DNA from: a virus
Taxonomy: Duplodnaviria; Caudoviricetes
Direction: 5' to 3' (one strand)
IMG/VR virus record: IMGVR_UViG_3300024310_000009
Coordinates: 1 to 61,252 of that record
Length of the DNA stretch: 61,252 bases
In this document: positions 7,929-16,601 of the stretch, piece by piece
How the letters are laid out: each line of letters opens with the position of its first letter
Numbering within the stretch: position 1 is the first letter of the stretch
The notes under the pieces: generated by a model
What the model saw: the letters and a program-made list of their open reading frames with translations, nothing else
What the model was told of the DNA's origin: nothing
Databases searched by the model: none
Program-made: the position numbers and the translations under genes

Positions 7929-10900
7929 ATGAAACTGTTCGACCGTATCCTGGGTTGGTGTCGCGACTGGGCTGCGCGATTGCGTGGAGAGGCTCCCGCG
8001 CAAAAGACAAAGTCCATCGGCGAACGCATCATGGCCGGTACGATGCTCGGCGGCACCGGCTACGGTTGGGGTTTCGGCTATGGGAGCGGCTCCTCGTACC
8101 AGGACAGATGGGAGCAAATCCAGCATTTCCGGCACTGGAGTTACGTCGCGATCAATGCCAGGTGCAACACGATTGCGGGGCTGAGGCCCAACATCGCCTG
8201 GGTACGGAGTAAACCGGAAACAGGGCCGGGCCACAAAAGCCTCTTCGCTCGCCAGCGGTACCAGAAAAGCCTCCACACCATCTCGGAACACGAGGAGATC
8301 GAGCCGGTTCCCGATGACCACCCGTGCCGGCTCTTGCTGGAGAATCCCTCCTCGTGGGACACACCGTCAGACCTTTGGTATGAGTTGGAGATGTTTCTCT
8401 GTCTCACAGGGGAAGGGTATCAGTGGAAGGTCCCGAGCCGCGGCGACCTTGGCCCCACGGAAACGTTCATCCTGCCCTCTCACTGGATGTGGCCGAGATT
8501 GAACGACCGCGGCATCGATTACTACGAATGCCGCCCGTTCACGGGCAACGCGGCCATGTTGCAGATTCCGGCAAACGAGATCATCCCGTACAGGAGGAAA
8601 TCGCCGTATCACAAGCTGGTTGGTTACTCGGCACAGACGGCGGGGGCGGAGTGGATTGATGCCGCTGAGGCCGTGGATAAATCACGCTTCTGGCAGTCAG
8701 TGAATGGGAGTTTCCCGTTAGGGACAATCGAACTCGATAAAGAAGCTTTTCCGGCGGACCCAGACGATGCCGACATGGCGCGCATCTACGCCAAATTTGC
8801 GGCGAGGTTCCAGGGCGCGGAAAAGTACGGCTTGCCTGTGATGATGCCGCCGGGGATGGAATACAAACCCCTCCAGATTGCTCCGACGGAGATGGGATTC
8901 TTTCAGACCGCTGAGCAGCTCCGGGACTGTGTACTGGCTCTGTTAGGGGTACCGAAGGAAATCGCTGGCTGCCAGCCATCGGGTTCTGACCTGTCGTGGT
9001 ACGCCCCGCTGGAGCAATTTTGCAGGTTCACGATTTCTCCCGAGGTTCGCTACCTGGGCGAGGTTCTCACGCGGGGCCTTGCCTCAGAGTGGCAGCACGA
9101 GGACGCACGCAGGGGACGCCTGCGTATCTGGTGGGATGATCCCACGCCGGATAACCCCACGGTACTCAATGCCAACCTGGCCCTCGACCTGCAATGGGGG
9201 CTGGTGACGACGAACGAAGGTCGGGCCATTCGTGGTCGGGAAGCGTATCCGCACGGTGGCGACGATCCAATGCTGAATCCCTCGCTGGCTCCCATGCCCT
9301 GGCAGACAGGAGAGCAGCCGTTGGACCTGTCGGCGATGATGGGTCAGCAAGGCCAGCAAGGCCAGCAACCGGGGCAAGAGCCTCAGCAATCGCAACAGCC
9401 ACAACCACAACCTGCGGAGCCGGACAGCGAGGGGGGCGAGACGGACCTTTCTGAGGAGGAAGTGCAGCAGCTCGGCAAACAGTTCTACGAGGAACTGCTG
9501 GACGAATGGAAGCGTTCTGGGAAGCAGAAGTGCGGCGGTGTTGGCGGCACCCCTGGCCCCTGTGCCGAGGCTGGCGCCGAGGAACAGGGTTCTTCGGAGC
9601 ACGACGAGGATACGAACTCACTACACCCACAGATCAGCGCAAAGGCCGACAAGGTATCGAAGTCGATCCTGGCGAAGATAACTGGCGTACCAAAGGCCGC
9701 CGTGCAGTGGGGCGTTGACTACGCGAAAAAGAAGTACAAGCAATACGAGGCGGACTACGGGTCAAAGTGGGCGAAGGCAATCACCGCTGCGGCAGTGATT
9801 GCGGCTGCCCCTGTTCCCGGTTCCGCTGCTATCGGCCTGCCGGGCATGGTCGTGGCTATCGGCCTGGCGAAGTTGCATCGGTCGCTGTCAGGACCGCAGG
9901 CTGAGCCAGCGATGGCGAAGCGGTTCCGCAATCGCTTCTCCAATAATGGAAAAGTCCTTGTGGGCGTGCATCAAAAAGCGGAGGAGGGGTTCTTCGGCGA
10001 CTGCGACCGCGACGAGGAGGGGCACTGCAAGCCGAGTTCATGCGACCGTTATCCGTCAGGAGCCTGCAAACCCAAGCCTGGGCCTGGGACAGGGGCTGGG
10101 CAAGGCAAAAAGCCAGGTGCTGGCAAAAAGCCAGGCGCGGAAGGAAGCCAGGCTGGTAGCGCTGGGAAGCCATCCACCGGGGCGAAGCCGCCAAAAAAAA
10201 AACCTGAGCAAGGCGCAGGGGGCAAAGTCCCAGAATCTGTTTCAGCAACTGCGCCAAAACAACCAAAGTACACCCCTGGAGATCAGAAGAAAGTAGAGGC
10301 TCTGCAATCGGCGGCCGCGAAGGATTCCGCGAACCCAAACCACGCGATGCAAGCGAAGCGTGACCAGATGGCTGACGTTCAGTTTGGTAATGGCCCCAAG
10401 ATACGCACTCTGCGGAGCACGCAGGACAAACCGCTCACGGCTCAGGACCATGCGGAAATGTCCGTTGTTCACGCCAGACTGGGCGGTCTGCTGTCAATCA
10501 TGGGAAAACAGGAACTGGCTGATGCTCACTTTGCCGCAGCGAGGTTTCACAGTACGGCACGAGATAAAAAAGCAAAAGCGCCGGTTGCACAGACCACGCC
10601 GGCGCAAGCAAAGCCACGACATGACTCCGCAACTCATCGTGCGGTTTCACAGTCATTCGAGCGCGACCTTGCCGCAGCACAACTACCAGAGGAGCAGCAC
10701 AAGCAGTATCAGAGTGCCTTGCAGCGTGTAACCTCGAACATCCCGGAACAGGCCGTGAAGCGCCTTCAGAAGTACGCCACGGAGTCACACTTCTTTGGTG
10801 ACAAGAAGGCGCTCGGCAATCACCTGAAAGACAACATGTACGCCACCTCGGAAGGGTCCGAGGGGGCGGTAGGGGGAGCGTATTCCGGTTTTGAGATTAA

Positions 10901-16200: not shown

Positions 16201-16601
16201 CAACGGAACCGGCGCCGGCCGAGGCCGAGGAAGACGAGATGACCGAGAAGGAGGAAGAGGAGGAGACGGAGGAGGCACTGGACAAGTACAGCGGCAAGAA
16301 GGGTTTCAAGACCAAGCGACTGAGCCGCAAGGGTCTCGCCGTGGTGAAGGAAGCCGCGGACCACCTCGACGACATGTCGAAGTTGGAGGAAGGGCAATTC
16401 GGCCGGACGCACAAGGCCGCCTGCCGCATGCACTCGAAGGAACTGAACGACCTGCACAAGGGCTTGACCGGTGAGGAGGAGGAACCGGAGGAGAAGTCCC
16501 TCGACCTCGCGGCGGTGGGCAAGGCTCTCTCAGAGTTGAAAGAGCAGCAAGAGAAGATGAACGGCACCTATTTCCGGGCAACCGGGAGGAGGCTGGCGTG
16601 A
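13293..16601 (+). CDS. HK97-family prohead protease fused to GNAT-like, acidic and scaffold-like domains
   Basis: DRVGDEM, VFFGH..PVG, SIGF, LLEFSWVGVGANP; GTGRGT..GHYTWPRLGY; E-rich C-terminus. Confidence 0.88.
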   Translation: MMPLPIPAPILKRQRRAPLAALPVELRRPYAYAYASNKDVGGALLLAGPAAAVLGTSDADMSARAVISTIDRDRVGDEMVPEGCVLDHYRKSPVVFFGHQSVPIPVGLAEHPRTKLLAVEIEPGQRVIATCYFHQASHEGPQFFELVKAGVLRSTSIGFNPLAEPRRLSPIPGNLYTGYRYEKWELLEFSWVGVGANPYCGIVREYLSRGTIAGEKISPQLRKSLEPLAEPQKVWSNGTGKGWFSSFFGRCDRDDEGHCKPEGGGESGKKPEEGKKPEGKPEGKKPEGSDNKLGSKPTNRPTAEEQELSKKYLGGDFNNASLLTGAPGGSTIRLREVNGKLYISVKNEELVVCTRIVGVDSSGKKYIKNEEFALSEKGTGRGTEIFAFQVEQASKHGFAYLTCSAVGGEEANGHYTWPRLGYDQSLESVAKQSKRDAEIVDRASKLFPDAKSVLDIMSTKNGRDWWKENGADMAHATFDLSKGSRSQKILAAYLEERKTKKKEYPHAGRNRTERGGRSRSGASLGKTGQGKRERGKRIVGRRVKVKGDWEEGKHPRTDDGKFGSGGKPGESDSPSQSSQDWSEHAEPELSETYTAGLNEDPKATTEEDLAAALKDLGKDEGYDVTILYNPDEEWFEVWDVETAKEQLGEGDEGTEVYSRKNPESGEWETGTDDQFYKQDHPEEFEDDDEDGNGNEKRLYRSQAERVILSAHKRLQKRVTAMKRYGIPQRKLSEGSGTDGGYVEEEHHEERPSVASAIAKAMEESGAEGDEAHYHEGEKSCHHKHAPDADPEHLEKCMKSLSAIEGVENVHQSDKDPEGEGWEKAYPVEPQAERHEAEMPEEEMETKKRFLRQLPKSIRKEAAKAVGISPDDPGIGKEDAEDLGAVEEEPIDMPHGAACALHCLEFLREVIPTLEPEVEKFFSDLLERVEKWAVKRYPDADMGIEAVEAETEPEAEPFAGEETEEEEEAEATEPAPAEAEEDEMTEKEEEEETEEALDKYSGKKGFKTKRLSRKGLAVVKEAADHLDDMSKLEEGQFGRTHKAACRMHSKELNDLHKGLTGEEEEPEEKSLDLAAVGKALSELKEQQEKMNGTYFRATGRRLA
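14809..14922 (+). CDS. Nested out-of-frame 37-aa acidic ORF (candidate immunity/antitoxin for the GNAT domain)
   Basis: AAGGAG at 14796-14801, ATG 14809; MPEEIELSEEEEAALERAWGKLGRGSENEESESSEGE. Confidence 0.6.
   Translation: MPEEIELSEEEEAALERAWGKLGRGSENEESESSEGE

What the first reader, a model, noticed from the sequence alone, without database searches (positions are those of the whole stretch)
7929..16601. Tagged 'cargo polyprotein' system built into portal, a free ORF and the prohead protease
Seen: three adjacent head genes carry non-structural domains introduced by recurring short tags, mostly just after Lys. FFGxCDRDxEGHCKP occurs in the portal (9990-10034, after HQK-AEEG) and the protease (14031-14075, after GK-GWFSS). 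DWEEGKHPRxDxGKFGSG occurs in ORF 11258 (11525-11578, after LK-AA) and the protease (14934-14987, after VK-G). KRFRNR occurs three times (9918, 11495, 12185). K-CGGVGGTPGPC sits at 9528. The Cys tag looks like a Cys-substituted version of the HPRxxxGxF tag. Known: the HK97 protease cleaves capsid after a Lys, and MuF toxins and phage 'polyvalent proteins' carry effector domains. Inference: the prohead protease excises these modules at K-(A/G) sites during maturation. The tags would act as loading, retention or ejection signals, giving a swappable set of injected effectors. Here MuF itself (12531) is short, and the cargo sits on the portal and protease instead.
Basis: partly seen in the sequence, partly recalled or inferred. 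Interest (0 to 1): 0.9.

Follow-up and report, generated by a model that had tools for sequence, protein, structure and literature searches.

The report
Conserved tags marking phage capsid cargo
A phage's portal, a small neighbouring gene and its head protease carry extra enzyme-like modules, each introduced by a short peptide tag that turns out to be widespread in phage head genes and probably marks proteins packed into the capsid.

Summary
All four motifs are in the sequence at the stated coordinates, and only in these three head genes. The window is a whole 61-kb phage contig.

The HPR tag (W-[DE]-E-x-K-H-P-R-x3-G-x-F-G) is widespread. It lies after portal domains or at the N-terminus of small head-module proteins, ahead of variable effector-type domains. 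In large multi-domain proteins it recurs every ~260 residues.

The Cys tag is a rare variant. Homologues of the same cargo domains carry a Cys, HPR or CG tag interchangeably.

The cargo is a zincin metallopeptidase on the portal and a GNAT-like domain inserted in a protease-scaffold protein.

All 5 tags follow a K-[A/G/C] dipeptide. Both capsid proteins have TK|AA at the column of the HK97 maturation cut.

So this is a phage-type polyvalent-protein system with a junction tag I found in no paper text, Pfam model or solved structure. Cleavage and loading remain inferred.

The parts
7920..11273 (+). Portal gene, 1117 aa: portal domain plus a ~650-aa C-terminal cargo extension
   Evidence: Pfam Phage_portal aa 132-439, E 5e-28. 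PHROG 12 portal, E 2.5e-35. Relatives' portals are 670 and ~460 aa and have no tags.
9528..9563 (+). CG tag: K then CGGVGGTPGPC
   Evidence: Regex. A like motif (CATGIGGGVDPGC) precedes the GNAT-like cargo in P0013.
9672..9884 (+). Hydrophobic helical module in the portal extension (approximate bounds)
   Evidence: Read from the sequence. Similar stretches were seen by eye in P0018 and P0022. No test was run.
9918..9935 (+). KRFRNR copy 1, 18 residues before Cys tag 1
9975..10034 (+). K686|A687 dipeptide followed by Cys tag 1 (FFGDCDRDEEGHCKP, 9990-10034)
10041..10073 (+). Second, degenerate Cys tag copy (CDRYPSGACKP)
10257..11270 (+). Zincin-like metallopeptidase cargo domain; HEISH at 11007-11021, with Asp three residues after it
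   Evidence: A profile of 10 homologues (A7) matches the anthrax lethal factor catalytic domain, E 1.3e-6. Invariant H251, E252, H255, D258 and E299-G300-x-A302-E303. Homologue P0006 is free-standing with an N-terminal RFR + HPR tag. P0007 is fused to a 2H/Acb1 domain.
11258..12550 (+). Free cargo ORF (430 aa from the ATG at 11258; the longest ORF starts at 11228)
   Evidence: No Pfam, PHROG or NCBIfam family. 80 relatives in 1.84 billion representatives, including itself.
11495..11578 (+). KRFRNR copy 2 (11495-11512), K97|A98 (11516-11521), HPR tag (11525-11578)
   Evidence: The same composite (RDRFRRLLK...DHPR) is seen in P0006, P0018 and P0037.
11660..12142 (+). Acidic two-repeat core domain of the free ORF, function unknown
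   Evidence: AF2 pLDDT mostly above 90 for residues 66-225 of the modelled segment. No fold match at E <= 0.001. Homologous domains follow a tag in 7 of 7 aligned relatives.
12185..12202 (+). KRFRNR copy 3, followed by a degenerate tag-like stretch (RWDAYHRDYAAF)
   Evidence: The likeness of the following stretch is my reading of the sequence.
12531..13286 (+). MuF (SPP1 gp7-type) minor head protein, 251 aa, no fused cargo
   Evidence: Pfam Phage_Mu_F aa 135-246, E 1.6e-9. 21 homologues of 151-339 aa, of which 20 carry PF04233.
13293..16601 (+). Prohead protease-scaffold polyprotein with inserted cargo, 1102 aa
   Evidence: Closest relative L109 (630 aa) aligns only to aa 10-247 (49% identity, E 4e-75) and aa 989-1062 (E 4e-5).
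13470..13997 (+). HK97-type protease domain; His99 (13587-13589), Ser156 (13758-13760)
   Evidence: Alignment with HK97 gp4: the His65 and Ser114 columns are invariant in 6 of 6 sequences. PHROG 617 and 4523 hits on aa 72-207. No Pfam hit.
14013..14075 (+). K241|G242 followed by Cys tag 2 (FFGRCDRDDEGHCKP, 14031-14075)
   Evidence: Relatives carry a Cys pair (CWGGWC) at the same place.
14178..14810 (+). GNAT-like cargo domain inserted in the protease protein
   Evidence: AF2 mean pLDDT 82. The Foldseek top rows include many GNAT / acetyl-CoA-binding entries, but E is only 5e-3 to 0.1. Homologues P0011-P0014 and L115 are free-standing, each with its own N-terminal tag.
14928..14987 (+). K546|G547 followed by HPR tag 2 (14934-14987)
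15390..16598 (+). Acidic, scaffold-like C-terminal region of the protease protein (approximate start)
   Evidence: Composition read from the sequence. The C-terminal ~75 aa are homologous to the cargo-free relative L109. The scaffold role is inferred.
17444..18862 (+). Major capsid protein 1; predicted maturation site K142|A143 (17867-17872)
   Evidence: Pfam Phage_capsid, E 1.3e-36. TK|AA aligns with HK97 gp5 K103|S104.
19100..20161 (+). Major capsid protein 2 (paralogue); predicted maturation site K53|A54 (19256-19261)
   Evidence: Pfam Phage_capsid, E 2e-40. TK|AA sits in the same alignment column.

Best explanation
The three genes form a capsid-internal cargo system of the 'phage-type polyvalent protein' kind.

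Cargo modules ride into the procapsid on proteins that are built into it anyway. A zincin metallopeptidase and a hydrophobic module sit on the portal C-terminus. A GNAT-like domain and an acidic module are inserted between the protease and scaffold parts of the head protease. The free ORF carries an acidic two-repeat domain.

Each module is preceded by a short linear tag lying in flexible linker. The tag family has an HPR form (W-x-E-x-K-H-P-R-x3-G-x-F-G), a rare Cys form ([FY]-F-G-x-C-[PD]-R-D-x-x-G-H-C-K-P) and a CG form. It is often preceded by a basic R-F-R-x-R-[LF] arm.

Shown: the tags exist, are conserved as peptides across many phyla, and mark the N-terminal edge of interchangeable cargo domains in head gene modules.

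Inferred:
1. During maturation the HK97-type protease cuts after the Lys that lies 1-6 residues before each tag. This is the same K|A-type site predicted for both capsid proteins.
2. The cut frees modules whose new N-terminus is the tag.
3. The tag itself is a signal that every module needs on its own. Most likely it serves docking or retention inside the head, or exit through the portal with the DNA.
For: - Motifs confirmed, and confined to the three head genes.
Their titles name Actinomycetota, Negativicutes, Neisseria, Mannheimia, Planctomycetota, Elusimicrobia, Bacteroidota and others.
- Upstream of the tag, 51 segments of 60 aa or more were scanned: Phage_portal_3 in 32, portal_2 in 2, Portal_Mu in 1, P23-45 portal in 1, MuF in 1.
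- Downstream, 104 segments were scanned: LPD3 21, PBECR1 10, DUF2213 7, Zeta_toxin 5, ADPrib_exo_Tox 3.
- Neighbours of 45 non-redundant free-standing tagged ORFs are head genes. Of 71 upstream neighbours, 13 are portal_3 and 12 MuF. Of 65 downstream neighbours, 8 are DUF2213, 7 minor capsid, 7 cement, 4 S78_2 and 2 S78.
- The grammar is (tag-domain)n. Of 79 non-self phmmer hits to the free ORF, 67 carry at least one tag, 53 at least two and 32 at least three. There are 173 tags with a median spacing of 264 aa, many of them within 60 residues of the N-terminus.
- The same cargo sits behind different tags: P0006, P0012, P0013, P0014 and L115.
- Relatives without cargo lack tags: L109, L116 and L117.
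- The protease dyad is conserved.
- TK|AA lies in both capsid proteins at the HK97 K103|S104 column, and K-[AGC] precedes 5 of 5 tags.
- The tag lies in a stretch modelled without confidence, with block-mean pLDDT of 35-46.
- Codon divergence between the tag copies points to selection on the peptide.
Against: - No experiment or computation here shows cleavage, packaging or ejection.
- A Lys before the tag is not general. In 98 viral tags, positions -3 to -1 are mostly D, A and E/D. K was present at -6 to -9 from the His in 67 of 173 tags. A common cleavage rule across phages is therefore unlikely.
- Tag-bearing phages use different protease families: DUF2213, S78 and S78_2.
- For the two fused proteins no loading signal is needed, so the tag's role there is unexplained.
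- The K-[AGC] statistic was defined after seeing the data.
- The GNAT assignment rests on weak fold matches (E >= 5e-3).
- The fold of the free ORF core has no match.
Confidence: 0.5

Rival explanations
1. The tags are recognition or cleavage sites of the zincin metallopeptidase carried at the portal C-terminus, not of the prohead protease. This would be the self-processing proposed for polyvalent proteins.
For: The portal C-terminal domain is a zincin with an intact HExxH...D...E set. HExxH occurs in 16 of 53 multi-tag proteins, against about 3 expected from composition. Self-processing by such peptidases is the published hypothesis (PMC5512222, passages).
Against: 37 of 53 multi-tag proteins have no HExxH. 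An HMM of this peptidase family found no member among the ORFs of the 104 HPR-tag viral loci. The K|A-type site before each tag matches the predicted capsid maturation site, which is the prohead protease's job.
Confidence: 0.17
2. The tag is a docking motif only. It binds a conserved head component (portal, MuF or scaffold) and holds cargo in the prohead. The polyproteins are not cut at the tags.
For: The tag is a short conserved motif between flexible linkers. It forms the N-terminal leader of free-standing head-module proteins, including head maturation proteases. N-terminal packaging signals are known in T4 and P1 (PMC9024508, passages).
Against: A tag before every module of a multi-domain protein is hard to explain if the chain stays whole. 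Fusions to portal, MuF or protease need no docking. Portal, protease and capsid families differ among tag-bearing phages.
Confidence: 0.15
3. The tags are passive module boundaries. They would be conserved junctions that ease recombinational swapping of cargo cassettes, like the junction motifs of polymorphic toxins. They would have no role in loading or processing.
For: Homologous cargo domains occur behind different tags and different anchors, which shows cassette shuffling.
Against: Identical residues of the tag copies use different codons in about half the cases, so there is no shared DNA junction within this genome. Nine positions stay fixed across phyla at the peptide level. Those nine were fixed by my search pattern, but the aromatic at -5 was not, and it holds in 167 of 173 tags from an unbiased phmmer search.
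Confidence: 0.1
4. The recurrences are chance or low-complexity linker composition.
For: The linkers around the tags are G/S/K/P/E-rich.
Against: The motifs occur only in these three genes of the window. The HPR tag recurs in hundreds of unrelated phage proteins.
Confidence: 0.01

Closest known systems
Phage-type polyvalent proteins (Iyer, Burroughs, Anand, de Souza, Aravind 2017, PMC5512222; abstract and passages read)
   Same: Several unrelated enzymatic domains share one polypeptide that is encoded among head genes. There are fusions to portal, MuF and an assemblin-like peptidase. A zincin metallopeptidase with Asp three residues after HExxH is present. The proteins are predicted to be packaged and injected.
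   Different: The main text of that paper holds no 'HPR' and no 'linker', and describes no junction motif. Its supplements could not be opened and may bear on this. In the window the cargo is inserted inside a protease-scaffold protein, C-terminal to the protease. The paper places the assemblin-like peptidase at the C-terminus.
MuF polymorphic toxins (Jamet et al. 2017, PMC5576092; abstract and outline read; word search)
   Same: Head-module proteins carry swappable C-terminal effector domains that are thought to be delivered with the DNA. Some tag-bearing relatives are MuF-tag-cargo fusions (seen in L011 and in P0025, P0069, P0089 and P0092).
   Different: The MuF of this window is a bare 251-aa domain. 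The paper's text has no occurrence of 'motif', 'linker', 'HPR' or 'cleav'.
Capsid targeting sequences of T4 internal proteins and of P1 DarB (PMC9024508, passages read)
   Same: A short N-terminal peptide directs a protein into the capsid. In T4 it allows proteolytic processing by the prohead protease (per the title of the cited Mullaney and Black paper). Heterologous cargo can be loaded.
   Different: There is no sequence likeness. P1 DarB, DdrB, DdrA, DarA and Ulx hold no HPR-type motif. Those signals are lineage-specific, whereas this tag spans many phyla.
HK97 gp4 protease / gp5 maturation
   Same: The His/Ser dyad columns are conserved. The capsid proteins carry a Lys|small-residue site at the column of gp5 K103|S104. 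That gp5 is cut there is recalled knowledge, not a tool result.
   Different: The protease is fused to about 860 further residues holding cargo and a scaffold-like tail. There are two capsid paralogues.
Junction motifs of polymorphic toxins (VENN in CdiA, DPxGL in Rhs); recalled, not checked with any tool
   Same: A short conserved motif demarcates a variable effector domain. In Rhs it coincides with a self-cleavage site.
   Different: The sequence, the delivery route (capsid) and the position (before every module, not only the last) all differ.

Membership tests
Phage-type polyvalent proteins | Two or more domains of disparate biochemical activity in one polypeptide | tested here: met
   Portal + zincin peptidase. 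Protease + GNAT-like domain; the GNAT call is weak.
Phage-type polyvalent proteins | Encoded among portal-terminase head genes | tested here: met
   TerL, portal, MuF, protease and two capsid genes lie in a row.
Phage-type polyvalent proteins | Zincin-like metallopeptidase module (HExxH, downstream Glu; phage type has Asp three residues after the motif) | tested here: met
   Profile against lethal factor catalytic domain, E 1.3e-6. Invariant H, E, H, D and E-G-x-A-E. Pfam MPTase-PolyVal itself gave no hit on the window protein.
Phage-type polyvalent proteins | Packaged in the virion and injected | not testable with these tools
   Needs virion proteomics and infection assays.
HK97-type (S78) prohead protease | Catalytic His and Ser in register with HK97 gp4 His65/Ser114 | tested here: met
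   A9 alignment: both columns invariant in 6 of 6 sequences.
HK97-type (S78) prohead protease | Match to the family profile (Pfam Peptidase_S78) | tested here: not met
   No Pfam family at E <= 0.01. There are only PHROG 617, 11321 and 4523 hits on aa 72-207, E 2e-8 to 2e-5.
MuF polymorphic toxins | MuF domain fused to a C-terminal toxin domain | tested here: not met
   MuF is 251 aa, with the Pfam domain reaching residue 246.
T4/P1-type capsid targeting sequence | The peptide is sufficient to load a reporter into capsids | not testable with these tools
   Functional definition. There is no sequence likeness to the P1 Dar proteins.
HPR junction tag (defined here) | Aromatic-[DE]-E-x-x-[HQ]-P-R-x3-G-x-[FWY], flanked by linker, N-terminal to a folded module | tested here: met
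   Two copies in the window. Family-wide, the aromatic sits at -5 in 167 of 173 tags.
HPR junction tag (defined here) | The Cys form belongs to the same family | tested here: inconclusive
   The spacing and P-R are shared in L108 and L115, and the position before homologous cargo is the same. The motif is too short for a statistical homology test. Only 2 further loci were found.

The most novel reading that the evidence does not exclude
The HPR tag and its Cys and CG variants form a pan-bacterial, portable 'capsid cargo' signal of tailed phages. Any domain placed behind it would be taken into the head, released by maturation cleavage next to the tag, and delivered with the DNA. It would be a general counterpart of the T4 capsid targeting sequence, and would explain how polyvalent proteins are parsed into working units.
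Probability: 0.3. Interest if true: 0.85.

Novelty: new variant of a known kind. Interest (0 to 1): 0.62.

Why it matters
Phages are known to pack effectors into their heads. A general sequence signal for this is known only for single lineages (T4, P1).

A 16-residue tag that marks cargo modules in phages of many phyla would do three things:
- It would give a rule for finding injected anti-defence and takeover proteins in any phage genome.
- It would make the long-standing hypothesis of polyvalent-protein processing directly testable.
- It would offer a handle for loading chosen proteins into capsids.

This window is a compact case. It holds two tag types, three anchor types (portal, protease-scaffold, free ORF) and cargo-free relatives for comparison.

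Tried and rejected
- Complex prediction of the window's MuF (alignment of 17 rows) with a 46-residue tag segment (85 rows) gave the verdict 'no answer', score 0.01. 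This is no evidence either way. MuF was chosen because it is the one head family shared by the window and most tag-bearing modules.
- A profile of 96 tag instances against all PDB sequences gave 0 hits at E <= 10.
- tblastn of the tags against 50,697 isolated phage genomes gave 9 records for the window's HPR tag, 8 for a canonical HPR tag, and only 1 doubtful record for the Cys tag. The tag is rare among cultured phages.
- BLASTP between the acidic regions after the two HPR tags found no alignment.
- A fold search of the free ORF core found nothing at E <= 0.001. The top weak rows are tandem winged-helix proteins.
- HMMs of the window's peptidase and GNAT-like domains found no member in the 104 viral HPR loci.
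- The P1 Dar proteins hold no such tag.
- Literature searches:
  - (HPRxxxG, HPRD, 'HPR motif', with 'capsid targeting sequence' and 'phage').
  - (KHPR, HPRxxxGxF, HPRDxxG).
  - (LHPRD, KHPRA, KHPRD, ESKHPR, HPRxxxG, HPRxxG).
  - Word searches inside PMC5512222 and PMC5576092.
  - In the listings shown, none of these returned a paper that describes the motif. The supplements of those papers are closed and may hold alignments that show it.
- I considered the portal as docking partner. A dodecamer exceeds the size limit, so it was not run.
I corrected the field and sent the same report again.

Full report
**What the window is.** The genome held for this window is the window itself, one contig of 61,252 bases. 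Its left part is a head module:
- large terminase (3994-5196);
- two ORFs with a TIGR02996 domain;
- a 1117-aa portal (7920-11273; Pfam Phage_portal aa 132-439);
- a 430/440-aa ORF with no family (11258/11228-12550);
- a bare MuF protein (12531-13286);
- an 1102-aa protein (13293-16601);
- two HK97-fold capsid genes (17444-18862 and 19100-20161).

**The protease protein.** Its N-terminal ~240 residues align with HK97 gp4. The His65 and Ser114 columns are invariant in 6 of 6 sequences, at window His99 and Ser156. It matches no Pfam protease model, only PHROGs of protease-capsid fusions.

**The observation.** A looser scan adds a second, degenerate Cys tag (CDRYPSGACKP, 10041-10073). It also shows that in real genes the motifs are confined to these three proteins. 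The two copies of each tag differ in codon at about half of the identical residues: 9 of 18 identical codons for the HPR pair and 11 of 16 for the Cys pair. So selection acts on the peptide.

**The HPR tag is widespread.**
- tblastn of the tag against isolated phages found it in the C-terminal tails of portal proteins of Pseudomonas phage Orimi01, Xanthomonas phage PhiXhv-5 and a Helicobacter prophage. There it sits between an acidic portal tail and a variable C-terminal domain.
It also hit 47 stretches of prokaryote genome contigs whose titles span many phyla, among them two Planctomycetota. By my own rough estimate, fewer than one hit is expected by chance.
- In the viral set the tag lies in 105 ORF segments in two positions. 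[quoted passage not shown] The other is at about residue 470-700, after a portal domain. A few proteins carry two or three copies.

**What flanks the tag.**
- Upstream, 51 segments of 60 aa or more were scanned against Pfam. Phage_portal_3 matched in 32, with 2 portal_2, 1 Portal_Mu, 1 P23-45 portal and 1 MuF.
- Downstream, 104 segments were scanned. The matches were effector-type or polyvalent-associated families: LPD3 21, PBECR1 10, DUF2213 7, Zeta_toxin 5, ADPrib_exo_Tox 3 and others. Most segments matched nothing.
- The two nearest same-strand neighbours of 45 non-redundant free-standing tagged ORFs are head genes:
  - Upstream, of 71 neighbours: portal_3 13, MuF 12, minor capsid 2 in 4.
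  - Downstream, of 65 neighbours: DUF2213 8, XM1 minor capsid 7, cement 7, MuF 6, S78_2 4, S78 2.
  - Also present: Acb1, NUDIX and 2H domains.
- DUF2213-type proteins with an N-terminal tag match PHROGs named head maturation protease. So tags on the protease are not unique to this window.

**The tag as a repeated unit.** A phmmer search of the free ORF against 1.84 billion representatives gave 80 hits. Of the 79 non-self hits:
- 67 hold at least one [HQ]-P-R-x3-G-x-[FWY], 53 at least two and 32 at least three;
- they hold 173 tags, with a median spacing of 264 residues (range 98-827);
- an aromatic residue sits five positions before the His/Gln in 167 of 173.

Many of these proteins start with a tag within their first 60 residues, so the repeating unit is tag-linker-domain. 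Pfam scans of 7 such proteins show ART, NUDIX, GNAT, histidine phosphatase and a C-terminal DUF2213 between the tags. No Pfam family covers the tag itself. A profile of 96 tags finds nothing in the PDB.

**The Cys and CG tags.** The Cys pattern is rare. I found one viral locus (L108, SYFGECPRDEAGHCKP) and one metagenome locus (L115). L115 has two adjacent free-standing ORFs with N-terminal Cys tags:
- One is followed by the homologue of the window's protease insert.
- The other is followed by a weak zeta-toxin-like match (E 0.0075, below Pfam's cutoff).
- They lie next to a 2H/Acb1-like plus ART protein.

Homologues of the protease insert carry four different leaders:
- an HPR tag (P0012);
- a CG tag like the portal's CGGVGGTPGPC (P0013);
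- a degenerate tag (P0014);
- a GRWVT-type leader (P0011).

A homologue of the portal's C-terminal domain is free-standing, with RDRFRRLLK plus an HPR tag at its N-terminus (P0006). The KRFRNR element is thus the basic arm of a composite tag, also seen in P0018 and P0037.

**The cargo.**
- *Portal C-terminal domain.* It has invariant HExxH, an Asp three residues later and an E-G-x-A-E helix. Its profile matches the catalytic domain of lethal factor at E 1.3e-6. This is the same relation that Iyer et al. report for polyvalent-protein peptidases (PMC5512222).
- *Protease insert.* It folds with mean pLDDT 82. Many of its top Foldseek rows are GNAT or acetyl-CoA-binding entries, but E is only 5e-3 to 0.1. 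The GNAT label is therefore tentative.
- *Free ORF core.* It is a confidently modelled acidic two-repeat domain without a fold match. The tag stretch ahead of it is modelled without confidence.

**Relatives without cargo.**
- The closest protease relative (L109, 630 aa) aligns to window residues 10-247, ending exactly before the Cys tag. It aligns again to residues 989-1062.
- Portal relatives are 670 and about 460 aa. One of them sits in the same gene order: portal, ORF, MuF, 721-aa protease. None of them has a tag.
- The cargo and tags are therefore insertions into a protease-scaffold backbone and onto the portal tail.

**Cleavage.** Aligned with HK97 gp5, both capsid proteins place T-K|A-A at the column of K103|S104: MCP1 K142|A143 and MCP2 K53|A54. 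That HK97 is cut there is recalled knowledge. Every one of the 5 tags is preceded within 7 residues by K-[A/G/C], including L-K|A-A before the free ORF's tag. The chance of this at a random position is 7-10%.

It does not generalise:
- In 98 viral tags the three preceding residues are mostly D, A and E/D.
- The protease families differ among tag-bearing phages.

The zincin is a rival processing enzyme. HExxH is enriched in multi-tag proteins (16 of 53, about 3 expected), but it is absent from 37 of 53.

**Verdict.** The system belongs to the known kind of phage-type polyvalent proteins. It adds a conserved junction or leader tag that I could not find described. My basis is three string searches and word searches in two key papers. 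The cleavage-plus-signal mechanism is the best reading of the (tag-domain)n grammar, but it remains inference. A complex prediction with MuF gave no answer.

Noticed in passing
window 6260-6943 and 6940-7611: Two tandem ORFs between terminase and portal each carry a TIGR02996 domain (rpt_mate_G_obs), E 1.6e-21 and 5.7e-22. As far as I recall this domain is typical of Gemmata-like planctomycetes, so the host may be one.
   Followed up: partly
window 17444-18862 and 19100-20161: There are two paralogous HK97-fold major capsid genes. The first has a ~140-residue N-terminal region and the second only ~50. Both have TK|AA at the predicted maturation site.
   Followed up: partly
window 9672-9884: A hydrophobic, possibly membrane-active helical module sits in the portal extension (AITAAAVIAAAPVPGSAAIGLPGMVVAIGLAKL). 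By eye, similar modules occur in P0018, P0022, P0066 and P0072.
   Followed up: no
L110, L111, L112, L113 (protease relatives): Directly after the protease domain these relatives carry a Cys pair (CWGGWC, CFTGWC) where the window has its Cys tag. L110 and L112 also hold DnaJ-like CxxCxGxG zinc-finger clusters further on.
   Followed up: no
L004, L016, L045, L051, L081, L099, L102 (viral contigs): Free-standing tagged proteins often begin with an alternating His/hydrophobic leader (HLHIYFHTYD, HIHIHLHRH) just before the HPR tag. The tag-less portal relative L116 ends in HVHV repeats.
   Followed up: no
L108, L115, L133 versus the window: The two contigs with Cys tags, and one planctomycete MAG contig with an HPR tag, are 62,251, 61,950 and 61,974 bases long. 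That is close to the window's 61,252. L115 shares no nucleotide similarity with the window.
   Followed up: partly
P0019: A 6326-aa protein matches the free ORF's acidic core domain in 29 separate stretches and holds no HPR tag.
   Followed up: no
window 12185-12260: The third KRFRNR is followed by LDALRTRWDAYHRDYAAF. This resembles a decayed HPR tag (compare RLDDLRTRLDEKWDEGKHPR in L085).
   Followed up: no
PHROG 30637: This unnamed PHROG (1119 positions) contains the tag at about positions 280-310 and a head maturation protease at its C-terminal end. Eight of 10 tagged proteins tested hit it; for seven of them the match covers little beyond the tag.
   Followed up: partly
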